This document shows positions 19,888 through 31,128 of a stretch of DNA of 64,000 nucleotides, piece by piece. Each line of letters starts with the position of its first letter. Positions within the stretch are counted from its first letter, which is position 1. The notes under the pieces were generated by a model that saw only the letters and a list, made by a program, of their open reading frames with translations, did not search any database and had not been told where the DNA came from. A program made the position numbers and the translations under genes. The stretch is from a virus (taxonomy: Duplodnaviria > Caudoviricetes): IMG/VR virus record IMGVR_UViG_3300014205_000218, positions 5,880 to 69,879 of that record. One strand, written 5' to 3'.

Positions 19888-20297
19888 ATCTATGGAGCCG
19901 CTTCACAACTCCGGTTCCTTCAGGCCGTGAATCCTGGCATACTTTCTCGCAGCGGCGAAGGGATCAAAACCATTCTTGTATGTCAACACCTTCGGACCGT
20001 TGACTGTATCGATAGCGACCGAAGTGCCGGCAGATTCCACTTCTGCCACTTTTTCCGGCGCCTGCGCCGCGCGGCAACAATCAAATTTCCTAATCTGGGC
20101 GCATTTTAAGGTGCTCTTTCCGCATGGGCACCGCGGCACGTCACGGCGGATCGGACGGCCGCCGCCAATCGCAGCATTAATGCGTGCGCGAAGGCGAAGC
20201 GCCTGACTCATCGTGATCTCCACAGGAGAGTCGCTATCTCCATCTGTCGGCGGCAATTTGATAAGTAGCTTACGTTCGTCCATGGATTTTGAAATGC

Positions 20298-20412
20298 AAA
20301 CTAGTATTACTCTTGAGTGTAAACTAGCTTCACTCTAAAATGCAAGCTAGTTTCACTCAATAATATTTACTAGCTTCGCTCATAGAGTTAGACTAGCTTC
20401 GCTCATGATCTG
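20298..20412. repeat. Five 23-bp tandem repeats with a CTAG core (operator/iteron-like)
   Basis: CTAG at 20301, 20324, 20347, 20370 and 20393; core CTAGYWTYRCTC; variable linkers. Confidence 0.85.
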
Positions 20413-20416
20413 AGCC

Positions 20417-21058
20417 CTAGAGAGTAACCCGAATCTCCTTTCGATCGGCCAGGTCTTTGGCTTGTTCTTCGGCCAGTATGCGCTTAGTTCTCTCCTTCAT
20501 TTCTGGCGTCATCTTTGAGAATCTAATACGCTCTAATTCGGTCTGCATAGCCTCCTTCCATATCTGAACCATCGTCCCGTCCGACGTGACCTTTACGCTC
20601 CGGTACCGTAGTGCCTTTCGGGCCTGCATAAAGGAACAAGCCACCGACTTAGTTCTCGTTTCATTCGGACAAAAGATTCGGAGGACGTTTCTATTGGTCA
20701 CCCACCCAAGCATTTCCGCCCATACACTAGTACGGATAACTCTGGTGGCTTCCCTTTTAGCTTTCTCTGTCAACCTTGGCTGGGAGACGCGCCAAGCGTA
20801 AATAAGATTGCCGTGAGTTAATACCTTGACCGGGTTCTGAAGGCGGCGCTGCAACTTGCGGAACTGTTGAACGATAGAGGCCACCTCAAAGTCGTTTTCG
20901 CAGGTGATCCGGGCCGCTTGCCCGACCCTAATACTAGCCAGCAACTCGACCCACTTGCCGGTAACGCGCCCCACTGCATATCTGATTTTAGGCTCCGTGA
21001 GTGAGTCAAAAGGCACTTCAGATGCCGGGATATGCTCTATTGTCATACCTCTTTCCAT
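20417..21058 (-). CDS. Hypothetical protein
   Basis: 213-aa ORF overlapping the upstream gene end; no recognised family. Confidence 0.55.
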   Translation of the reverse strand: MERGMTIEHIPASEVPFDSLTEPKIRYAVGRVTGKWVELLASIRVGQAARITCENDFEVASIVQQFRKLQRRLQNPVKVLTHGNLIYAWRVSQPRLTEKAKREATRVIRTSVWAEMLGWVTNRNVLRIFCPNETRTKSVACSFMQARKALRYRSVKVTSDGTMVQIWKEAMQTELERIRFSKMTPEMKERTKRILAEEQAKDLADRKEIRVTL

Positions 21059-21399
21059 CCTTTCGCGAGGCCATTCGAACGCGGATCAAGCCTGAGAAAC
21101 CGCGCGAGGTCATCGGTGTATAGCCATAGGTCATCGAAGTTCTGGGCGGCCGATTTAGCCCCCATCCAGAGCCACACAACACAATCCTCCTTTTTGATCT
21201 TCAGCCCGGCATCACTAGTGCTTCGAGCGCCGGCGTATTTCAAGCCCCGCAACGCATTGTCGCGATTCGCTTCACATGTGAAGTCCATACGGATGCGGAT
21301 CTTGGGGTTCGATTTGATAATCGCCAGAATACTCTCCCAGTAGCCATCGGCGTCATATTCCGGGAGTTGGATTTTATACCCTTCATTGATAAGTGTCAC
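21043..21399 (-). CDS. Hypothetical protein
   Basis: GTGA-coupled to the upstream Zn-ribbon gene. Confidence 0.55.
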   Translation of the reverse strand: MTLINEGYKIQLPEYDADGYWESILAIIKSNPKIRIRMDFTCEANRDNALRGLKYAGARSTSDAGLKIKKEDCVVWLWMGAKSAAQNFDDLWLYTDDLARFLRLDPRSNGLAKGWKEV

Positions 21400-21545
21400 T
21401 TCGAGCTCTCCTTCTTTGGCTTATTCCAATTGGGCGATCTGCACTCGGCGCAGCGCTTGGGCGTCTTGTCCGCATTACGCGGGAGCCATTCATAGCCACA
21501 CCTTGAGCAGACGCAAGCGGTACTTCTTATTCTGCGTTTCGGCAT
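21396..21545 (-). CDS. Small Zn-ribbon protein
   Basis: CSRCGYEWLPR...PKRCAECRSPNWN. Confidence 0.75.
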   Translation of the reverse strand: MPKRRIRSTACVCSRCGYEWLPRNADKTPKRCAECRSPNWNKPKKESSK

Positions 21546-21556
21546 AGATTCCGATT

Positions 21557-21601
21557 TCTCATTCACTGAGAAGTATATCATCTCATTCAATGAGAAATCA
21601 A
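21557..21601 (-). promoter_or_regulatory. Promoter overlapped by two 15-bp palindromic operators
   Basis: TTGATT-18-TATACT on minus; TCTCA-TTCAC-TGAGA (21557-71) and TCTCA-TTCAA-TGAGA (21581-95). Confidence 0.6.
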
Positions 21602-22094
21602 GTAGGGCGATATTCGGCTGAACCTGTTACTAGCCTTACTTTTTGGGGCCTGGGCCAATTATAGCGATTGTCCCCACTATCCTACTGATTCTATTCTTTT
21701 TTCTTTCTCTGGGGCTTAAGGGGGAATAATATATAAAACAGTTAGGTAATTAAAGGGCAGAAGAGGGGGTAGAAACGCGTACTTTAACATACTACACTCT
21801 AAGCCCCAGTAAAAAACCAGGCTAAGGTATCGGTATCTCCTTGAAACCAAAGGCTGGGGCCTGTGTTTTTGATTCATAATTCATTCCAGGCCCCAAAACC
21901 TGGCTCTCTATACCAGCCACTCCAAAATTCATCCATTCCCGGTAATCCACGCAGCGAGCGCGTAGCGCGAGCGTAGAGCTTCTATTGGGGTTTCTGTGGC
22001 CGGGGGAGGCCGGGGGTGTAGGGCCTCACCCGCTATCCCTTGCCCTGGGGTACGCGCTTGCACTACACTTGTAGTTTCAGCCCGCTACAAAACC

Positions 22095-22706
22095 ATGGCG
22101 AATCTTCAATCCACGTCCGCAATCGAGAAACTTCCGGCCAACATCAAGCAGGATGTGATTGATAAATTGATCGCTGGCACGTCTACGCGGGCTGTGTCGA
22201 CCTACCTCGCTACGAAGGGCTACAACATCGGGTTTACTGCCATCGCTCGCTACACGCGGAACACGATCAAGCCGGCTCTCAAGATGAGCGCCAAACTCTC
22301 ACGCCTAGACAATGATCTGTCCCATAGTGAGACTACTGTGGTAGATAAGACACGTGTCATTTCTGCCACAACGAATGCCGCGCTGGCGGCGGGACCGATC
22401 CTCGCCCGGCTAGATCGCAAGTTTGCTCGGCTAGACAAGGGGCTTGTAAGTACCTCAGAATCAGGCGATTACGATAGCCAAGCGAAACTTGAGGCGCAGG
22501 AGTCCAAAGCAATTGAACTGCTTGGCAAGGCCACGCTGGACCCCGGTTTTGTCCAGTCCGCGCAACCGGCCTCCTCGGACGCTCGGGTCATTATAGTGAT
22601 GCCAATGGCTAATGACGCTAGGCTTATGGCATGGCAGGCGAAGCAGAGAGAGGCGGAGGAGGGCAGGGTGATTGAGGTATCGTCTGTGCCACAAACGAAC
22701 GATTGA
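22095..22706 (+). CDS. Putative terminase small subunit / DUF3486 (Mu gp27-like)
   Basis: SAIEKLPANIKQDVIDKL N-terminus, HTH-like region, C-terminal VIIVMP; first rightward gene after a long non-coding gap. Confidence 0.55.
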   Translation: MANLQSTSAIEKLPANIKQDVIDKLIAGTSTRAVSTYLATKGYNIGFTAIARYTRNTIKPALKMSAKLSRLDNDLSHSETTVVDKTRVISATTNAALAAGPILARLDRKFARLDKGLVSTSESGDYDSQAKLEAQESKAIELLGKATLDPGFVQSAQPASSDARVIIVMPMANDARLMAWQAKQREAEEGRVIEVSSVPQTND

Positions 22707-22913
22707 GGCACGCGATTATCGCAAGCATTAAACCCTTTGTTTGCTTGGTCATTCGGCTGCTTAAGGCTGGACGTTTATGGCACAGTGTTGGCTGGTATGG
22801 GTCAGTGGGCGTGGTGGATCGGTGGCGAGACAAGCCGGGCTTCCGGCATGGGGTCGGCCAGCCCCCCCCCCGGCCCCATCTCACAGACTTTTGAGTCCCG
22901 ACCGGCGCGTAGT

Positions 22914-23540
22914 CTAATTCTCCACAGACAAATCCACCACTTCCCCGGAAAGTTTAGGTCCCATCTGGCCGATGGCCCGCTGGATAGTGGAAGGTTTCGC
23001 CCCCAACGCCTTAGCAATCTCCCTTACAGAAGCGCCGGAGCGGTGTAAATCGAAAACGCGCTGCCGATCGAATACGGCCGGTCGGCGCCCGAGTATTGCC
23101 CCTTGCGCTTTGGCTCGTTCCAGCCCGGCGATGGTGCGTTCTGAGATGCGGATACGCTCCTGCTTGGCAATTGTGGCAAGGATCGACATTACAGCGTCCT
23201 TGAAGATTCCGCAGGAATCGAGGTACTGCTCGGTATAGGATTTGAAGCCGACGCCGCTCGCCTCCAGCCGATTGAGGTAGTTCAGCGTTTCGCGAACGCC
23301 TTCCCTTGAAAACCGATCCAGGCTCCAAAACAGGACAACATCAAATCTTCGCTTCGCGGCGTCGGCAAAGAGCGCCTTGAACTGGCTCCGATCGCCGGAT
23401 TTGGCGCTGGCGTGGTCGATGTACTCGTGGGTGAGCGTATACCCGTGCTTCAGGGCATATTCCCGGAGGTGAGGTAGTTGGTTCTCGGTATCCTGACCTT
23501 TGTCTTTAGTCGAAACACGGGCATAAATGACGGCTTTCAT
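22914..23540 (-). CDS. Serine recombinase (resolvase/invertase) with C-terminal HTH
   Basis: IYARVST catalytic Ser, SLDRFSR, ERIRISERTIAGLERAKAQGAILGRRP, and HTH. Confidence 0.93.
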   Translation of the reverse strand: MKAVIYARVSTKDKGQDTENQLPHLREYALKHGYTLTHEYIDHASAKSGDRSQFKALFADAAKRRFDVVLFWSLDRFSREGVRETLNYLNRLEASGVGFKSYTEQYLDSCGIFKDAVMSILATIAKQERIRISERTIAGLERAKAQGAILGRRPAVFDRQRVFDLHRSGASVREIAKALGAKPSTIQRAIGQMGPKLSGEVVDLSVEN

Positions 23541-23659
23541 GCTGGTAGTGTGCCATAATCGTGTACCTAAATGCAATAGGGATCGATAGGTAACAAATAA
23601 GCGCAGTAACAATGAAAATTCAAAACAATACGGCACAAAAATGTTCTGGTGATAGTATA

Positions 23660-23878
23660 ATGAAGATGAAGCCAGTGTATACGCCTGAAGAAGTTGCCGA
23701 AAAGCTCAAGGTAGGGAAGCCGACTGTGATGCGGTTGCTGAACAGTGGCGACCTTGTCGGGTCGCGGATCGGCCACAAGACATGGCGGATTACAGAAGAG
23801 GAACTAGAACGGTTTCTGGAGTCGAAAAAGGAGAAAAAGACTCCATCCTCATTAGGCGCGTTGGACACATCGGAGTGA
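23660..23878 (+). CDS. Excisionase-like HTH DNA-binding protein
   Basis: YTPEEVAEKLKVGKPTVMRLLNSGDL...WRITEEEL; TATAAT at 23656-61 suggests a possibly leaderless transcript. Confidence 0.85.
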   Translation: MKMKPVYTPEEVAEKLKVGKPTVMRLLNSGDLVGSRIGHKTWRITEEELERFLESKKEKKTPSSLGALDTSE

Positions 23879-23907
23879 ATTCAAAAATTCACAACAAGGA
23901 GGTTGCT

Positions 23908-24549
23908 ATGGCAACCACACAAGCAAAGACAGTATCGATCAAGGCTCCGAATTTCGGATTTGCCGAGTTCATGATTAAAGGGACGGAGGTCCTGGTTCAG
24001 CATCGGTTTTCGGCAAAGACGAAGGCCGAGATGAAGCAGAAGATGGAGATTGGGAAGGCCGCGGCGGGGAAGAAGAACAGAGAAGCAAAGGATACCGATC
24101 AGACGTTCAATGAGGCCCGGTACATTAGCCGGGAAGGGTGGGACGGTTTTAATGCCGCGGCTTTACGATCAGCGATGATTAGCGCCTGCCGGTTGGTGAA
24201 TTTCAAAATGACCCTCGCGAAGATGTCGATTTTTGTTGAGGCCGACGGCTATGACAAGTTGGAGCCTCAGATCCCGCTGATTCGTATTCACGGCAAGCCG
24301 GTCAAGCAGGAAGATATGGCTCGCGTACAGACAGGCCAACCGTATGTGACAGTCCGGGCGGCGTACCACGATTGGAAGGCGAAGATTCGCATTCGCTGGG
24401 ATGCGGATCAGTTCACGCTTGAAGACGTAACAAACCTACTGTCGCGCGTCGGGATGCAGGTCGGGCTCGGCGAAGGGCGACCGGATAGCAAGAATTCCGC
24501 CGGTATGGGATGGGGCCTGTTTGAAGTGGAGGGATCGAAAGCGGCATGA
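23908..24549 (+). CDS. Stand-alone Cas7/RAMP-like protein (candidate effector of a VIPR-type RNA-guided system)
   Basis: AAGGAGG RBS; beta-strand IKGTEVLVQH, helix GFNAAALRSAMISA, C-terminal Gly-rich loop VGLGEGRPDSKNSAGMGWGLFEV; upstream of the GGY-NN array. Confidence 0.75.
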   Translation: MATTQAKTVSIKAPNFGFAEFMIKGTEVLVQHRFSAKTKAEMKQKMEIGKAAAGKKNREAKDTDQTFNEARYISREGWDGFNAAALRSAMISACRLVNFKMTLAKMSIFVEADGYDKLEPQIPLIRIHGKPVKQEDMARVQTGQPYVTVRAAYHDWKAKIRIRWDADQFTLEDVTNLLSRVGMQVGLGEGRPDSKNSAGMGWGLFEVEGSKAA

Positions 24550-25061
24550 GTGACTCGGCGATTGTTTCAGAACTGCGGCGCATAGCGGAAGTAAACGGCG
24601 GCGAGTTACGGCCGGCAGATGTCGTTGAAGCTGCCCGTATTGAAACATCGCCGCTTCATCCTCAGTTTGACTGGGATGATACGGAGGCCGCCCAAAAGTG
24701 GCGGCTTCACCAGGCCAGGAGGCTGATTAAGGTCACTGTCGAGTATATCGGCGGCGATGAAGTGAAGATCCCTGCTCGGGTATTCGTAAGCCTGACGACT
24801 GATCGCCACAACGGGACCGGCTATCGAGTGTTGGCGGCAGTGATGTCCAATTCCGAGCATCGAAAGCAGTTAATGGCGGATGCACTCGCGGATATGCAGC
24901 GATTTGAGAAGAAGTATTCAGAACTGAAGGAACTTACTGATGTGTTCATGGCAATGCGGAATGTCAAGAAGGTAAAGTCAAGCCTTGATGACCCGATGCC
25001 GTGGCCGGCGGATTTCAGCGCAGTCCGCCCGGCGGATGCGCTGAAGCGCGCGTCAGTGTAA
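24546..25061 (+). CDS. Accessory protein coupled (ATGA) to the RAMP-like gene
   Basis: GELRPADVVEAAR...SPLHPQFDWDDTEAAQKWRLHQARRLI; stop codon 12 bp before the array. Confidence 0.75.
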   Translation: MSDSAIVSELRRIAEVNGGELRPADVVEAARIETSPLHPQFDWDDTEAAQKWRLHQARRLIKVTVEYIGGDEVKIPARVFVSLTTDRHNGTGYRVLAAVMSNSEHRKQLMADALADMQRFEKKYSELKELTDVFMAMRNVKKVKSSLDDPMPWPADFSAVRPADALKRASV

Positions 25062-25073
25062 GGGTTGTATCTC

Positions 25074-25404
25074 GGCTTGGATTGGTTGGGCAGGCTAGGC
25101 GAGGCTAGGCACGGCTAGGCACGGCTTGGCAAGTTAAGGTAATGCAGGCGAGGTCTGGCGGGGCACGGCAAGGTGAGGCGCGGCGCGGCATGGTAATGCA
25201 GGCGAGGCAGGGAGCGGTAGGGCATGGCGCGGCGCGATAAGGCAGGACAGGCGAGGCGGGGCAAGGATGGGCAGGGTGAGGCAAGATACGGCAGGCGAGG
25301 CGTGGGCCGGTATTGCTAGGTCGGGAATGGTTAGGTAATGCAGGCTAGGTGAGGCGGGGTGAGGCCCGGCTGGGCCAGGCGGGGCACGGCAGGCAAGACA
25401 TGCA
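25074..25404 (+). ncRNA. GGY-NN pentamer array (candidate multi-guide RNA precursor), about 6 units
   Basis: 59 pentamers, 50 starting GGC/GGT; units of 8-10 pentamers plus a 4-nt linker; junction GCAGGC(G/T)AGG recurs; NN positions are variable. Confidence 0.85.
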
Positions 25405-25419
25405 GGGTAAATAAACCAC

Positions 25420-25644
25420 ATGACTAAAAACAAACTCTCGAAAGAAGCACTCAAGTTTTTCCGCGAAGCAGGCCGCGATGGTGGGTTGAAGGGTGGCGCT
25501 GAAGGCGGCAAGAAGGCCGCTGGAAACATGACTCCCGAGCAGCGCCGTGAAAGGGCAAAGAAGGCCTCTACTGCGGCAGCGGAGAAGCGAAAGAAGGCAG
25601 CGGAGAAGCGAAAAGGTAAAGCATCCAAGAAAAAGCCATCATAA
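25420..25644 (+). CDS. Small basic protein with KGG-like motif
   Basis: GRDGGLKGGAEGGKKAAGNMTPEQRRERAKKA. Confidence 0.7.
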   Translation: MTKNKLSKEALKFFREAGRDGGLKGGAEGGKKAAGNMTPEQRRERAKKASTAAAEKRKKAAEKRKGKASKKKPS

Positions 25645-26914
25645 CCACCCATGCCCCACTCCAACCCCGACAACATCACGGTAATCACAGACGCGCTGAT
25701 ATCAGGCATTCACGGCCCGATCGCGGCCGGAGATGTGATAGTGATTCGGAATTGGGATGACGGCCCGGCGGCGTGGGAAGTGAGATTTGGTCCATTCACG
25801 GAAGAAGAGATCACGGAGGCGCGGAGGGTCGCCGGGAGGAAGATATGAAACACATCGCCACAGTTTACGGCTTAAACGTTGACGATAACGGCGATCCGAG
25901 ATGTGAGCGGATCGAATGTAACCGAGCCCACCGCCCGCTGTATATGTTCTATCCATTGGGCGAATTCACGCAATGCCCGCTATCTCTAGTGGAGTGGCCC
26001 GGCCACTTGCCGACGGCGGAGTTAGGAGACATGGTTGTCGATTTGCTTCTACGGGGCTCGACGGTAGAGTTCAGCCGGCGTGGGATATGGGGAGTGGAGG
26101 CGAGGGCCGAATAATGCCTGACATCGGAATCGATCCACAGAAAGCAATCGCGGAATGGGAGCGCCGGAAAGCCATCAAGGCCGCTGAGGCCGCGGTGATA
26201 GAGGCGGCTATCCCAGTGGGGATCTATGGTGACGACTGGAGCCCTGACGACATGAAGGAACTAAATCTCGCGGTTCGGGAGTTACTTGAAGCGCGGTGTG
26301 TTGAAGTTGATGCTCGGTTTGTAAATGAGAGAGTCCAGATCGGCGGCGCATACGGCGGCCCCGACTTGGAGGTGGTAAATGAAGCGTAGATCGTTGCTCG
26401 GGATGCTCGCGGCAGTATTTGTGGGAATGTTTCGCCCGGCGAAGGCGCCCGCAGCGCTGCGGCCCGCGCCGGAGTGGAAAAGGCTAATGATCGTGACAAC
26501 CATTGATCGTGAGCGGCATATTGTTCGAGTGTGCCCGCCTGATAAGGTTGAGCCATCTGAAGAGGTTTCACTCAGCCCTAAATCAGTGGAGAAACTGGAG
26601 GCCAGTGGTTACTTGACGGCTAGGATGGTAGTTCTGTTTGGCCCCCTGGCCGATGACATCGAGATCGTCCGTAAACTTGGAGCGCCGATATTGTGGGCCG
26701 GGGATCACATCGGCGGGATTTCGGGTACAGTCAACCGTTCAGAGGGGACCGATAAATGAACCAGAATGAAAAATCTCACTTTTTCGCAGGAGCCTCAGTT
26801 GGTTTCGCAGTGGGAATATCGATCACTTTGATAATCGCCGCCGTAGCGACCTGGCGCTTTGCCCCCTAAAACATTCCCCCACAAAAACGTTTCAAACATA
26901 ACCCATAACACCCG

Positions 26915-26955
26915 TTGACAGCCTCCATCGCCTCCCTGTATACTACACTTGTAGT
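26915..26955 (+). promoter_or_regulatory. Strong late promoter with operator at the start site
   Basis: TTGACA-18-TATACT followed by the palindrome ACTACA-CT-TGTAGT (also at 22062-75). Confidence 0.7.
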
Positions 26956-27406
26956 CCAACAGTCTTGATCTACGTGTATCTCCACTGATCTTGCCGACCC
27001 GGCGGAGATAAGCGAAATCAAGAGCCCGTTTGGGGGCTAGCCAAATCCTGACGCAGGGGACTCCTGTCTCCAGCCCTTTAAAACCAAATGAAATTTAGGT
27101 CACGAGTAGCCGTGTATCGAAACGGCAAGTTTGCGTATTGGACACGCGCTCTGATTGCGGCGCAGCTTTGCGCGGCGCAGTATGCCAAGCGCGCGGATAA
27201 GGGCCGAATTGACCTGCCGGAGCGAGAAGCCACTGAGGACGCAGAGATGAAGAGGGCGTTAAAGGATTTTGCGGAATCCAAGCCACCGCGGTTGTGCTAC
27301 GGCGAGCATTCGACTCCGAATAAGGACCGGAAAAGGTTTGCGCCTTGCTACTTCCAGGCTCAAACCGGGCAGATGTCGGCTCATAGAACCGTGAGTTTTC
27401 GAGAGG

Positions 27407-27916
27407 TTGGTTGAAATGCACGAATCCTTTGGATACCCCGCACAGCTTTTGCAATTTCTCAAGGTCCAACGTGATGGCGCTGACCTGGAGAACCTTCGCA
27501 ACAAGAGTAAGTTTGAGGCGCAACTGGTGACGTGGCGGAGCAATTCGCTGCATGTCGGATCGGAGTTGCCACGGCCTGCGGTCCCAAACATGAAATCCGT
27601 GGACACCGTGAAGGCGACCGAGCGTTTCAAGCAGTGGTACGAGGCCGAGTACCCGGCTGAAGTGGTCTTCGATTTCTTCGAGTTCACGCCGCTGGAGTTG
27701 GCCCCTGGCACGTGGGACTTGACGCCGAAGAACGTGGCCGCCCCGCCGGTTGACCCTGTGGCTGGCCCCGACGGTTCTATCCCCGGCCAATATCTTGTTT
27801 CGGCTGGCGATGATTTTCCGCTCGACTCGGTGATTGAGCATCCGAAGTATGGGCGGCTGAAGAAGACCGGACGCGTTACCCCGTTCGGATCTTGGTATCG
27901 CTGGGTAGCGGTTTAG
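27407..27916 (+). CDS. Hypothetical late protein
   Basis: Coupled ORF in the late operon. Confidence 0.55.
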   Translation: MVEMHESFGYPAQLLQFLKVQRDGADLENLRNKSKFEAQLVTWRSNSLHVGSELPRPAVPNMKSVDTVKATERFKQWYEAEYPAEVVFDFFEFTPLELAPGTWDLTPKNVAAPPVDPVAGPDGSIPGQYLVSAGDDFPLDSVIEHPKYGRLKKTGRVTPFGSWYRWVAV

Positions 27917-28979
27917 CAGAGGAGACTCGTTATGCACAAGATTGCAATTCTGTACCTCGCGGCATTCCTCGTGATTGCCGTTGCTAAGGCCGATCCGGAT
28001 TTCCCGGAATGCTACCCGTGCGACACGAAGGTGCAAGTCGTTACGAATCAGTCGTTTAGCGGGCCTACAATCCCGCCCATCGACGATGACGAAACCGGTG
28101 GAACGAAAAACCACATTTCCCATGCAGGACTTCGGTAAGGGGCCGCTCTGATGTTTATGGATGAACTGAACGCCGCTGACGCCAGAATCAATAATCTCCG
28201 ACGTTCTGAAAACCACGTCAATTGCGAGCGGAAGCGAGAGGACGCCATTGAGAAACAGGAACAGGTGGCGTGCCGCGTATCTGTAGCGCCGGATTTCGAG
28301 TCTCTCCACGAGCCTACAGAGAAATTAAATCGCTCTATTGGCTTCAACAGCCGCAGAGGGAAGGTCTACAGGGAAGCCGCCCCAGGACGATCCGCAAGAT
28401 AATTCATGGAACGCGCTGGGCCAACGTCGCTTAATTCATGATCCCCACGATCAAATCCGAGGGCCGAATCGCTTGATCGCTGATTTCATCGGGCGCAGGA
28501 GTGGTTGCGAATGGCTGAACCGACACAAGTTCAAGTAGGGTTGACATTTCCCGGCGAAGCGCTGGCGATTGAGGTCATTAAGTTAATCACGCTGATGATT
28601 GAGAGCACGCCGATGGAAGTCCGTCAGGAGCAAGCCCGCGACGGATGGGAGCGGTACAAGCGGCTGCTGGATTTTTTCGACAAGTTGACTGGCGTGAAGC
28701 CCGCGGAATAATCCGGTGATGTATGTCTCCTGCGTGCCTTATTCATCCTGAGTTTGACGGGCGCACGAAGCCGGTTTGGACGAATTGTGCGGCGTGTCTT
28801 TACCGCTGGGTGACGTTTCAGTCTGACGCGTATTTGATCGCGGAAGACGCGCTCCTGATTAAGAAATTCATATCGCCGGGTATCGGATAACCCGGCACTC
28901 AACTTCCCGCGGCCTGATCCTGGCCCCGTAATGACGGACACTTTCAAGCCCAGTAGCCCACGGCCGCGGGAAACCTCTT

Positions 28980-29351
28980 ATGAGCATCAGTAACTACCTC
29001 GAAAACAAGATTCTAGATAAGGTGTTCAGTAACACCGACTTCACGGTCACGACAGCCTACGTTTCCCTGCATACCGGTGACCCCGGCGAGACCGGGGCCG
29101 ACGAGGCCGCCGGTGGTAGCTATGCTCGCCAATCCGCCGCGTTCGATGCGTCCGCCAGCGGCGCAACTGCGAATGCCGCAGATATCACTTTCACGGCAAT
29201 GCCAACGGCCACGATTACACATATCGGCGTTTGGGACGCGTCCACGACAGGAAATTTTCTCTGGGGCGGCGCGGCTTCGGCATCCAAGGCGCTCACATCG
29301 GGCGATGAATACAAGATCCTCGAAGGCGATCTTGACGTGACGCTCGATTAA
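28980..29351 (+). CDS. Virion fibre/spike-associated structural protein
   Basis: MSISNYLENKILD...YVSLHTGDPGETG...SYARQS family, commonly annotated as phage tail-fibre protein. Confidence 0.7.
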   Translation: MSISNYLENKILDKVFSNTDFTVTTAYVSLHTGDPGETGADEAAGGSYARQSAAFDASASGATANAADITFTAMPTATITHIGVWDASTTGNFLWGGAASASKALTSGDEYKILEGDLDVTLD

Positions 29352-29862
29352 GCCGAAAACATGGGCATCCTTCAGGACAACAAGATTCAAATTGCGGCGC
29401 TGACTGCGGTTGTAGCGGATCTTCAGGACCGCGTTGAAGCACTGGAACGCGTGGCCGCTGAGACGTGGATCGCGAGATTCAGGCGCTGGATGAAGGGGTA
29501 ATCGAAATGGCATTGCAGACATTGTTAGCCGCGCAGAATCGCGGACCGCTCACGTTGACCACCGCCAGTTTCACCTTGCCTGCGGAAGGATGGTCGGCGG
29601 CGAAGATTATCTTTTCCGTCTCCAGTAACCATCTGTTGAACGTAAATAAGCGGTTTTCGGTGATGCTACAGACCTACGGCAATGGTCAGTGGAATGACGA
29701 CACTTCTCTTACGTGGGAGGGTGGAGAGTTCCCTGATCGCACTGGCGTTACCCCGCGGCCTTCGATGACCATTCAGGCCGAAGGCTACGCCGGAGCCCAG
29801 GTGCGCGCGGTTATCGATCTCCCTGTACAGGTGAATACCGGAGTGCAGATTGACGTCGTGTA

Positions 29863-31128
29863 ATGGCGATCGCGCATGTTCAGACTCCGACTCCGGTTGA
29901 GTTATCGAACGTAACTTCCATCGGAAAGACGTTCACCTCAACGCCGGTAGTCGGGAATTACATTTTCGTCTTCGTTGGCGCATGGACGAGTGCCGGTACC
30001 GCGCCGACAATCACGTCGGTAACGGACAACAAGGGGAACAGCTATTCGCTCGCCAGGCAGCAGAGCGTCATCAATATCGCAGGCTCCAGGGCGAACGTTT
30101 GGATTTACTACGCGAAGGTTGCCACTGCGACCGCGACATTCACCGTCACGGTCAACTTTTCGGCCTCCGTCCTGCCCACCCTGGGAATCAGCGAATTCTC
30201 GGGGGTCAAGGCCACTTCACCGCTCGACGCGTCGAATAACGGCGGTACCGGATCGAGCACGTCGGCGAGTTCTGGGAGCATCACCCCGACCGGCACATGC
30301 CTATACCTCGGGCAGGTTGGACATGCCGGCAGCGGGACCACAACGCCATCGACCTCGGGATCGTGGGCGCAGCTTGTAGAGATCGATGAGAACAACGATT
30401 CACAAGTTCAGAACATTGCCTATGTAATCGGGAGTGGCGCGAAGTCTGAAACCTGGACGATCCCAAATTCCGCCTGGGGCGCGCAGGCTGTTGCGTTTCA
30501 GGAAGAGTCAGCGGGCGGCCCAACAACTCACTTCGGTGAGGCAACGATATCCGGCAATGGCTCGTTAGCGGCATCTGGGAAGCGAATAACATTTACGACG
30601 GCTTCAATGTCCGGCGCCGGTTCGCTGGGTGGCGTTGGCCGCAAAGTCACGTTCGGCTCCACATCGTTTACCGGAGTTGGTTCACTGGAGTCCATCGGTC
30701 TTCGCACTGTATTTGGATCAAGCAGTATTTCAGGCGCGGGCTCACTGGAGGCCACCGGCCAAAGAACAGCAGTAGTGAGCGCGGCCCTCTCCGGTGAATC
30801 GGACTTGGCGGCCGTTCCGCTAAGGATTGCGGTTGGCTCGGCATCACTGAGCGGGGTTGGGTCTCTTGCAGCGCAAATCGGCACGGCGGTTACTCACTTC
30901 GGGGCCGCATCGCTATCCGGTCTGGCCGATATGGTCGCCGTCGCGAAGCGTATCGCTGTGAGCGGGTCGAGTTTTACCGGCGCAGGTGGACTAAGTGCAA
31001 CTGGGAAACGAATCGCGGTTGTTTCTGCGGCGCTGAGTGGAGTTGGTTCTCTCACGGCCCGCGTGCAGGGCGCGGCGAAGCGGACCAAGGGCGCATGGAT
31101 TTCATTGCGAATTGGATTGGGGTTTTAA
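29863..31128 (+). CDS. Virion fibre protein with C-terminal A/S-LSGxGSL repeats
   Basis: S/T/G-rich beta domain, then about 9 repeats resembling SLSGVGSLAA...R. Confidence 0.65.
   Translation: MAIAHVQTPTPVELSNVTSIGKTFTSTPVVGNYIFVFVGAWTSAGTAPTITSVTDNKGNSYSLARQQSVINIAGSRANVWIYYAKVATATATFTVTVNFSASVLPTLGISEFSGVKATSPLDASNNGGTGSSTSASSGSITPTGTCLYLGQVGHAGSGTTTPSTSGSWAQLVEIDENNDSQVQNIAYVIGSGAKSETWTIPNSAWGAQAVAFQEESAGGPTTHFGEATISGNGSLAASGKRITFTTASMSGAGSLGGVGRKVTFGSTSFTGVGSLESIGLRTVFGSSSISGAGSLEATGQRTAVVSAALSGESDLAAVPLRIAVGSASLSGVGSLAAQIGTAVTHFGAASLSGLADMVAVAKRIAVSGSSFTGAGGLSATGKRIAVVSAALSGVGSLTARVQGAAKRTKGAWISLRIGLGF

What the first reader, a model, noticed from the sequence alone, without database searches (positions are those of the whole stretch)
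25074..25404. Two-level architecture of the pentamer array
Units: 25093-146 (10 pentamers + TGCA), 25147-200 (10 + TGCA), 25201-249 (9 + GACA), 25250-293 (8 + GGCA), 25294-342 (9 + TGCA), 25343-391 (9 + GGCA), with partial units at both ends. A 4-nt phase break recurs, with junction (G/A)CAGGC(G/T)AGG; three junctions are GGTAATGCAGGC(G/T)AGG. NN strings: U1 TA GA TA AC TA AC TT AA AA AA; U2 GA CT GG AC AA GA GC GC AT AA; U3 GA AG GC AG AT GC GC AA AG; U4 GA GG AA TG AG GA AA AC; U5 GA GT CC AT TA CG AT TA AA; U6 TA GA GG GA CC TG CA GG AC. A fixed scaffold with non-repeating NN is not what slippage microsatellites produce; the junction is the likely processing site.
Basis: seen in the sequence. 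Interest (0 to 1): 0.9.

Follow-up and report, generated by a model that had tools for sequence, protein, structure and literature searches.

The report
Staggered VIPR guide-RNA array in phage
The pentamer array is the guide-RNA array of a VIPR system, a CRISPR-related phage system for RNA-guided DNA silencing first described in 2026 preprints, and its two-level layout matches the "staggered" array type drawn there, so this is a new example of a known kind.

Summary
Window 25074-25404 is a non-coding, G-rich run of GGY-NN pentamers: 47 of 55 fit GGY, against 4.2 in shuffles. It is cut into six units of 54/54/49/44/49/49 nt by a recurring 4-nt step at (G/A)CAG|GC(G/T)AGG.

The array lies 12 nt after a two-gene operon in a 69.9-kb phage genome. 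The first gene (23908-24549, phrog_4652) is a Vipr protein. Its family profile hits the solved SUSP1 Vipr (PDB 36pp, E 1.4e-6). Its AlphaFold model (pLDDT 94.9) matches only Cas7-type RAMPs (Csm3, Cmr4). The second gene (24546-25061, phrog_15946) is the accessory gene (vap).

The locus is therefore a VIPR system (bioRxiv 10.64898/2026.04.26.720920 and .720927). The 4-nt step is the 1-nt overlap of the "staggered vrRNA arrays" in that paper's Fig. S18. Unit lengths of 5n-1 and the GCAG|GY junction recur in five related metagenomic loci. Similar GGCAGGC steps occur in Cyanophage Cy-LDV1 and Mycobacterium phage Donkeykong.

The NN strings of different units are no more alike than shuffled ones. 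No self-target and no convincing natural target was found. Processing at the junction is still an inference.

This scan has already noted VIPR loci in over 100 other genomes.

The parts
23612..23878 (+). Small ORF (88 aa) that looks like an excisionase-type helix-turn-helix protein, directly upstream of vipr. It is context only; membership in the system is not shown.
   Evidence: ORF list and translation. The HTH reading is from the sequence by eye and was not tested against a family library.
23908..24549 (+). vipr gene: a single-RRM RAMP (Cas7-like) protein of 213 aa (P0067). The open frame could start as early as 23782 (255 aa).
   Evidence: phrog_4652. Family profile A1 hits PDB 36pp 'SUSP1 Vipr protein' at E 1.4e-6. 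The AF2 model has pLDDT 94.9. The top Foldseek hits are all Cmr4, Csm3 or type VII Cas7, at probability 1.00. R150, E189 and R191 align with SUSP1 R138, D177 and R179.
24546..25061 (+). vap (vipr-accessory) gene, 171 aa. Its start overlaps the vipr stop (ATGA).
   Evidence: phrog_15946. It sits next to a phrog_4652 gene in every related locus examined. The AF2 model has pLDDT 88. Fold matches are weak (E about 0.5) and go to winged-helix DNA-binding domains only.
25062..25092 (+). Array leader and short first unit (CGGCTTGGATTGGTTGGGCAG), ending at the first GCAG|G junction.
   Evidence: The same leader, CGGCTTGG-TTGG-TG-GCAGG, opens the arrays in L002, L005, L007 and L008.
25093..25146 (+). 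vrRNA unit U1: 10 pentamers plus TGCA. NN string: TA GA TA AC TA AC TT AA AA AA.
25147..25200 (+). vrRNA unit U2: 10 pentamers plus TGCA. NN string: GA CT GG AC AA GA GC GC AT AA.
25201..25249 (+). vrRNA unit U3: 9 pentamers plus GACA. NN string: GA AG GC AG AT GC GC AA AG.
25250..25293 (+). vrRNA unit U4: 8 pentamers plus GGCA. NN string: GA GG AA TG AG GA AA AC.
25294..25342 (+). vrRNA unit U5: 9 pentamers plus TGCA. NN string: GA GT CC AT TA CG AT TA AA.
25343..25391 (+). vrRNA unit U6: 9 pentamers plus GGCA. NN string: TA GA GG GA CC TG CA GG AC.
25392..25419 (+). Degenerate terminal stub of the array. It runs up to the ATG of the next gene (25420), which is not conserved.
   Evidence: The 74-aa gene downstream is not similar to the one after the array in L007.

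Best explanation
The array encodes six or so VIPR guide RNAs (vrRNAs) laid head to tail in the 'staggered' layout.

Shown here:
- The neighbouring gene encodes a Vipr-family RAMP.
- The array has the GGY/NN repeat that defines vrRNAs.
- Each unit is 5n-1 nt long, because the last pentamer (GGCAG or TGCAG) shares its final G with the first GGY of the next unit.
- This layout is conserved in related loci, while the NN content is not.

Inferred from the published SUSP1 and P. fulva work:
- The operon transcript (vipr-vap-array, G-rich strand) is bound by Vipr protomers, one per pentamer. These hold each GGY and present each NN.
- The 1-nt slip breaks the 5-nt register, so each unit forms its own filament of about 9-11 protomers and is cut or trimmed at GCAG|G.
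- Each filament then reads double-stranded DNA by the 1-nt-skip rule (NN x NN x ...), a footprint of about 24-30 bp.
- Binding silences transcription of a competing mobile element, with the vap protein assisting.
For: - **Vipr identity.** Profile A1 (88 sequences) hits PDB 36pp 'SUSP1 Vipr protein' at E 1.4e-6 (the single sequence gives E 0.028). The AF2 model has pLDDT 94.9 and pTM 0.88. 46 PDB matches have E <= 1e-3, and the listed ones are almost all Cas7-type backbone subunits (Cmr4, Csm3, type VII Cas7, Cas7-11), with one Cmr1. The thumb Arg and the G-loop Arg are conserved, with R191 invariant in the family.
- **Repeat.** Positions 1-2 are G (1.87 and 1.64 bits), position 3 is C or T, and positions 4-5 carry about 0.2 bits. 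This matches the published vrRNA definition of 9-16 YNNGG repeats.
- **Staggering.** Over 55 junctions in six arrays, the upstream register has G at -19, -14, -9 and -4, and the downstream register has G at 0, +5, +10 and +15. That is a shift of -1. Spacings cluster at 44, 49, 54 and 59 nt. The paper's Fig. [quoted passage not shown]
- **Conserved three-part module.** phrog_4652, phrog_15946 and a G-rich array occur together on the coding strand in L002, L003, L005, L007 and L008. In Mycobacterium phage Donkeykong the array lies upstream of the two genes. In Cyanophage Cy-LDV1, two such arrays follow the Vipr homolog and its downstream gene g33, which was not family-tested.
- **Phage context.** Large terminase, a weak portal match and a head protein lie in the same 69.9-kb contig.
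- **NN content.** NN strings of different units are no more alike than shuffles. No self-target exists under the 1-nt-skip rule, as reported for published systems. NN composition fits codon positions 1-2 of the sense strand best in 6 of 8 arrays. This agrees with the reported alignment of skip bases to wobble positions, but the evidence is weak.
Against: - There are no RNA data for this locus, so transcription, unit ends and Vipr binding are all inferred.
- The sequence match to the characterised Vipr covers only about 56 C-terminal residues. The W178 stacking residue of SUSP1 is an invariant Gly here, so GGY recognition may differ in detail.
- The units have no room for the roughly 40-nt 3' tail and pseudoknot that caps the characterised type II vrRNAs.
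- No natural target was found above chance.
- I could not see Fig. S18 itself, only its legend. Equating this layout with the published 'staggered' type rests on that legend.
Confidence: 0.9

Rival explanations
1. It is the same VIPR array, but the units are not separate processed RNAs. The array acts as one long transcript. The 4-nt steps then only reset the filament register, or are tolerated slips in one long guide, so the junction is not a cleavage site.
For: No processing data exist for staggered arrays; the main text says that only the ribozyme and single-vrRNA layouts were confirmed. No hairpin or ribozyme marks the junction: Rfam finds nothing there, and the fold z-score is only -1.9.
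Against: The junction and the last pentamers are conserved (GGTAA-TGCAG|GC) while the NN pairs vary. Unit sizes of 8-11 pentamers match the 9-16 repeats of single characterised vrRNAs. The Fig. S18 legend speaks of 'individual processed vrRNAs'.
Confidence: 0.07
2. It is a DNA-level or transcription-coupled element that does not act as a guide. For example, a G-rich R-loop or G-quadruplex-forming origin or recombination site used by the two neighbouring proteins.
For: GC skew is strong, 0.41-0.45 over the array. GG every 5 nt could in principle form two-tetrad quadruplexes. In L003 the module sits next to a DNA polymerase gene.
Against: The neighbouring protein is a RAMP homologous to a structurally characterised RNA-guide-binding Vipr. 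Conserved GGY with free NN is exactly the vrRNA code and is not needed for R-loops or G4. The array can lie upstream or downstream of the genes but is always on their coding strand.
Confidence: 0.02
3. It is a slippage microsatellite, or a repetitive protein-coding stretch as annotated for Donkeykong gp48.
For: Tandem Repeats Finder reports 5-, 10-, 20- and 49-nt periods. In Donkeykong the equivalent region is annotated as a CDS.
Against: The NN pairs are near-random while GGY is fixed, and units are not diverged copies of one another. In this window no + strand ORF of 40 aa or more crosses the array. The array architecture is conserved across hosts as far apart as cyanobacteria and mycobacteria, without sequence conservation of the NN pairs.
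Confidence: 0.01

Closest known systems
VIPR systems with staggered vrRNA arrays (bioRxiv 10.64898/2026.04.26.720920, main text and Fig. S18 legend)
   Same: The locus is phage-encoded and minimal: vipr (a lone RAMP), one vap gene and an intergenic array. The repeats are GGY/NN pentamers. Successive units overlap by 1 nt, so one unit ends where the next begins.
   Different: The VIPR type (I-VII) of this locus could not be assigned, because the figures and data tables are not held. I found no experimental confirmation of the staggered layout in the text. This clade maps to phrog_4652 plus phrog_15946 and is very abundant in metagenomes: more than 5000 homologs and 2127 clusters at 50% identity.
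Type II VIPR of Escherichia phage SUSP1 and the Pseudomonas fulva prophage (same preprint; structures in 10.64898/2026.04.26.720927, PDB 36pp and 36pk)
   Same: The Vipr fold, thumb Arg and G-loop Arg are shared. The guide code is GGY/NN, with about 10-12 repeats per guide. An accessory gene is present. The expected mechanism is the same: one protomer per repeat, the 1-nt-skip rule and transcriptional silencing.
   Different: SUSP1 vrRNAs are about 100 nt, are spaced apart, and end in a conserved tail of about 40 nt with a pseudoknot. Here the units are 44-54 nt and abut directly with no tail. Sequence similarity to SUSP1 Vipr is detectable only by profile over the C-terminal third. SUSP1 W178 is a Gly here.
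Class 1 CRISPR backbone subunits (Cas7: Csm3, Cmr4)
   Same: They are the best structural matches. They also bind one protomer per fixed step of guide RNA, with a thumb that breaks base pairing at regular intervals.
   Different: There are no CRISPR repeats or spacers and no other cas genes near the locus. The step is 5 nt, not 6. The guide is non-contiguous.
TRAP (trp RNA-binding attenuation protein) binding sites: 11 (G/U)AG triplets spaced by 2-3 nt
   Same: The 5-nt register of a fixed triplet plus a variable spacer, in runs of about 10, was what first suggested an oligomeric RNA-binding protein.
   Different: No TRAP-like protein is present. The triplet is GGY, and the neighbouring protein is a RAMP. 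This was only a lead from memory and was dropped.

Membership tests
VIPR system | Vipr protein: a single-RRM RAMP with a glycine-rich loop and a thumb | tested here: met
   The AF2 model has pLDDT 94.9. Foldseek top hits are Cmr4, Csm3 and type VII Cas7 at E 1e-5 to 1e-3 and probability 1.00. The G-rich loop GLGEGRP...GMGWG lies before the last strand. Invariant residues are G182, G190, R191, G199 and G203.
VIPR system | Sequence homology to an experimentally characterised Vipr | tested here: met
   Profile A1 against PDB gives 36pp 'SUSP1 Vipr protein' at E 1.4e-6, over residues 124-180 of the chain. R138, D177 and R179 of SUSP1 align with R150, E189 and R191. W178 aligns with G190.
VIPR system | vrRNA region: tandem GGY/NN (YNNGG) pentamers, with GGY conserved and NN hypervariable | tested here: met
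   47 of 55 pentamers fit GGY. Information content is 1.87, 1.64, 0.75, 0.20 and 0.16 bits. Shuffles give a mean of 4.2.
VIPR system | Minimal locus with an adjacent accessory (vap) gene, typically predicted to interact with DNA | tested here: inconclusive
   An adjacent, translationally coupled gene is present and co-conserved. Its fold gives only weak winged-helix-like matches, at E about 0.5. Pfam gives nothing.
VIPR system | Encoded by a virus or provirus | tested here: met
   The contig is 69,879 bp and carries a large terminase, a weak portal match and a head protein.
VIPR system | vrRNAs are expressed and co-purify with Vipr | not testable with these tools
   This needs small-RNA sequencing and a pull-down.
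VIPR system | Guides match natural DNA targets by the 1-nt-skip rule; no self-targets | tested here: inconclusive
   No self-target: the best matches are 13-16 of 16-20 bases, within the control range. Exact-match scans found nothing above chance. Searches at 80% or more NN match, as in the paper, could not be run on the large collections.
Staggered vrRNA array | Successive vrRNAs overlap by 1 nt, so the end of one marks the start of the next | tested here: met
   Unit lengths are 54, 54, 49, 44, 49 and 49 nt, all 5n-1. The register shifts by -1 at GCAG|G over 55 junctions in six arrays.
Type II VIPR array (SUSP1-like) | Each vrRNA ends in a conserved 3' tail of about 40 nt with a pseudoknot | tested here: not met
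   The units abut directly, and only a 4-nt step separates the repeat tracts. No strong fold is predicted (z -1.9).
Ribozyme-interspersed VIPR array | Hammerhead ribozymes between vrRNAs | tested here: not met
   An Rfam scan of 20000-30000 at E <= 1 gives no ribozyme, and there is no room between the units.
CRISPR-Cas | A repeat-spacer array with a period of about 60-79 nt, plus cas genes | tested here: not met
   The period is 5 nt with super-units of about 50 nt. The neighbouring genes tested give no Cas family other than the RAMP fold.

The most novel reading that the evidence does not exclude
In this very abundant Vipr clade (phrog_4652), the guides have no structured 3' cap. The 1-nt register slip at the conserved GCAG|GY junction may itself be the punctuation mark. 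Filaments built in 5-nt register would stop at the slip. Guide ends would then be set by protein protection and trimming, or by cleavage by Vipr or Vap. That would be a tail-less, ruler-type route of vrRNA biogenesis. A term search of the three VIPR preprints found no discussion of vrRNA biogenesis or maturation.
Probability: 0.35. Interest if true: 0.5.

Novelty: new member of a known kind. Interest (0 to 1): 0.3.

Why it matters
This finding does not open a new class. VIPR systems and their staggered arrays were published in 2026.

It has three uses.
- It shows, with counts over 55 junctions in six arrays, that the staggered layout (units of 5n-1 nt, conserved GCAG|GY junction, semi-conserved last pentamers) is a stable feature of one large Vipr clade. 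According to the paper's text, this layout has not yet been confirmed by RNA sequencing.
- It links that clade to two PHROG families of 'unknown function' (phrog_4652 as Vipr, phrog_15946 as its vap). It also links it to named phages, Cyanophage Cy-LDV1 and Mycobacterium phage Donkeykong. In Donkeykong the array is annotated as a protein gene.
- It gives a compact, tail-less set of 44-54-nt guides that could be tested for how vrRNA ends are made.

Tried and rejected
**Early ideas, dropped once the neighbouring protein proved to be a RAMP**
- TRAP-like ring binding in a 5-nt register.
- An R-loop, origin or G-quadruplex element.
- A Rho or CsrA sponge.

**Protein-coding reading.** Rejected, because no + strand ORF crosses the array.

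**Rfam.** Nothing in the array.

**Related loci.** The search for related loci with the vap protein in IMG/VR found nothing. Related loci came from the look-up of encoding contigs instead.

**Self-targets and cross-targets**
- Own genome: no match above the shuffled-guide controls. This does not support another first-stage note, that two units echo this phage's own genes.
- Guides of related arrays against this genome and against each other: nothing under any skip rule.

**Target scans for exact matches under the 1-nt-skip rule**
- U1, U2, U5 and U6 in full against IMG/VR: 0 hits.
- U2 core, 16 specified bases: 23 hits. Matches in the flanks look like chance, and no second guide hits the same contig.
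- U3 in full: 7 hits, 5 of them independent, with no common gene or frame.
- U2 in full against 596 Gb of genomes: 1 hit, with about 1 expected by chance. It lies in a wzt O-antigen ABC-transporter gene of an Omnitrophota MAG.
- U2 in full against metagenomes: 3 hits. Two homologous contigs are hit in one gene; the copy tested is a GNAT acetyltransferase (L042). The third hit is in a HYR-domain protein.
- All four U2 hits are in frame, with the skip base at the wobble position. A codon-like pattern is expected to hit in frame by chance, so I treat these as chance.

**vap fold search.** No significant match.

**Gene after the array.** Not conserved.

Full report
**1.

Window 25074-25404 reads as GGY-NN pentamers. 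They fall into six full units:

| Unit | Coordinates | Length (nt) |
|---|---|---|
| U1 | 25093-25146 | 54 |
| U2 | 25147-25200 | 54 |
| U3 | 25201-25249 | 49 |
| U4 | 25250-25293 | 44 |
| U5 | 25294-25342 | 49 |
| U6 | 25343-25391 | 49 |

- Each unit ends in a 4-nt step (TGCA, GACA or GGCA) before the next GGC(G/T)AGG.
- Per-position information content is 1.87, 1.64, 0.75, 0.20 and 0.16 bits.
- 47 of 55 pentamers fit GGY. Shuffles of the same bases give a mean of 4.2 and a maximum of 12.
- The stretch is strongly G-rich, with GC skew 0.41-0.45.
- No + strand ORF of 40 aa or more crosses it.
- It is the only such array in the genome on either strand.

**2. Context**

- The window is most of a 69,879-bp phage contig. 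The contig carries a large terminase, a weak portal match and a head protein.
- The array starts 12 nt after a pair of overlapping genes on the same strand.
- The first gene is 23908-24549 (the open frame starts at 23782) and belongs to phrog_4652.
- The second gene is 24546-25061 and belongs to phrog_15946. Both families are labelled 'unknown function', and Pfam gives nothing.
- Upstream lie a small HTH-like ORF and a divergently oriented serine recombinase.
- The simple scans find no + strand promoter or terminator between vap and the array. Co-transcription with the operon is the simplest reading, but it is an inference.

**3. The module is conserved**

- Homologs of the phrog_15946 protein were found in metagenomes.
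- In each related locus read (L002, L003, L005, L007, L008), a phrog_4652-type gene and a phrog_15946-type gene are followed by a non-coding, G-rich stretch of roughly 200-620 nt on the coding strand. GCAGG recurs in it about every 50 nt.
- A blastn hit of the array itself led to Mycobacterium phage Donkeykong. There the same kind of array lies directly upstream of gp49 (phrog_4652, E 2e-58) and gp50 (phrog_15946, E 2e-89). That array is annotated as a protein gene, gp48.
- Cyanophage Cy-LDV1 has a 54%-identical homolog of the first protein and two such arrays.
- The first protein is very common in metagenomes: 5272 hits, many at 75-80% identity, and 2127 clusters at 50% identity.

**4. Identification**

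- A search of solved structures with the 213-aa protein gave one weak hit, PDB 36pp 'SUSP1 Vipr protein' (E 0.028).
- With a profile of 88 diverse relatives (A1), the hit rose to E 1.4e-6.
- This led to three 2026 preprints on VIPR (Viral Interference Programmable Repeat) systems.
- These describe phage-encoded loci with a lone ancestral RAMP (Vipr), an accessory gene (vap) and vrRNAs made of alternating GGY and NN.
- Vipr binds one protomer per repeat. It hides the GGY and presents the NN. The NN pairs read double-stranded DNA with one base skipped after every two, which silences transcription.
- The AlphaFold model of the protein here is confident (pLDDT 94.9).
- Its structural neighbours in the PDB are almost entirely Cas7-type subunits: Cmr4, Csm3 and type VII Cas7.
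- In the HMMER alignment, SUSP1 residues map as follows:

| SUSP1 residue | Role given in the preprint | Residue here |
|---|---|---|
| R138 | thumb, contacts G2 | R150 |
| D177 | G-loop, contacts G1 | E189 |
| R179 | G-loop, contacts Y3 | R191 (invariant in the family) |
| W178 | stacks on G2 | G190 (invariant Gly) |

- The vap protein folds confidently (pLDDT 88). It gives only weak, winged-helix-like matches. This is compatible with the 'WH-like' vap proteins mentioned in the paper but does not prove the link.

**5. The two-level architecture**

- The paper lists several array layouts: spaced vrRNAs with a 3' pseudoknot tail (type II, characterised), 'staggered arrays with overlapping vrRNAs', ribozyme-interspersed arrays, and single vrRNAs.
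- The Fig. [quoted passage not shown]
- That is what the 4-nt step amounts to. GGCA|GGCGA can be read as pentamer GGCAG overlapping pentamer GGCGA by one G.
- I aligned 55 junctions from six arrays at CAG|G. The upstream register has G at -19, -14, -9 and -4. The downstream register has G at 0, +5, +10 and +15. G at -3 (47 of 55) was not imposed by the search pattern.
- Junction spacings cluster at 44, 49, 54 and 59 nt.
- The first NN of a unit is semi-conserved (GA or TA here). The last pentamers are semi-conserved too: GGTAA-TGCAG in three of six units here, and GGTAG-AGCAG in L008. These may be handles and not guide positions.
- There is no room for a 40-nt tail. No ribozyme is found, and no strong fold is predicted (z -1.9).

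**6. Guide content**

- NN strings of different units share 27-31% of bases. Shuffled strings give the same. The units are therefore not drifting copies of one ancestor.
- Under the 1-nt-skip rule, no guide matches this phage's own genome above shuffled-guide controls. The paper reports the same for its systems.
- NN composition fits codon positions 1-2 of the sense strand better than any other frame or the genome dinucleotide background, in 6 of 8 arrays examined. This agrees with the reported wobble alignment of skip bases. The evidence is weak, because depletion of C for structural reasons would push the same way.
- Exact-match scans of IMG/VR, GTDB genomes and JGI metagenomes gave only chance-level hits.
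- The host and the natural targets remain unknown.

**7. Verdict**

The core of its reading is right: a functional scaffold carries a variable code, and the junction bounds the units.
- The system and this layout are already in the literature. This scan has already noted VIPR loci in more than 100 genomes.
- What remains open is how staggered, tail-less vrRNAs get their ends. A term search of the VIPR preprints finds no discussion of vrRNA biogenesis.

Noticed in passing
L001 1386-1772 (NC_051648.1 36870-37256): In Mycobacterium phage Donkeykong, gene 48 ('hypothetical protein') is laid over a GGC-NN pentamer array with GGCAGGC steps. The array lies directly upstream of gp49 (phrog_4652, Vipr-like) and gp50 (phrog_15946). 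The CDS call is probably a mis-annotated vrRNA array.
   Followed up: partly
L040 2428-2651 and 3234-3406 (BK059895.1, Cyanophage Cy-LDV1): This cyanophage has a Vipr homolog (g34, 54% identical) and two staggered GGY-NN arrays, one on each side of g33. It is the closest named phage carrying this Vipr clade.
   Followed up: partly
L032 1977-2005 (-), L041 258-286, L042 873-901, L043 4909-4937: All four exact 20-of-20 matches of guide U2 in genomes and metagenomes lie in frame in long ORFs, with the skip base at the wobble position. The genes are a wzt transporter, a gene found on two contigs (GNAT acetyltransferase in the copy tested, matched about 5 codons after its start), and a HYR-domain protein. 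The number of hits is about what chance gives, and the genes are unrelated.
   Followed up: yes
window 22914-23636 (-): A serine recombinase (resolvase domain plus HTH; phrog_125 'DNA invertase') lies upstream of the VIPR operon and is divergently oriented from it, beyond the HTH-like ORF at 23612-23878. In L003 and in one locus without DNA, a tyrosine integrase lies next to the module.
   Followed up: no
window 25134-25709 (-): A 191-aa minus-strand ORF runs through the array and through the + strand gene at 25420-25644. It is most likely an artefact of the lack of stop codons opposite a G-rich strand.
   Followed up: no
window 25420-25644 (+): A small lysine-rich ORF of 74 aa starts right after the array. 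It is not similar to the 74-aa ORF that follows the array in L007.
   Followed up: yes
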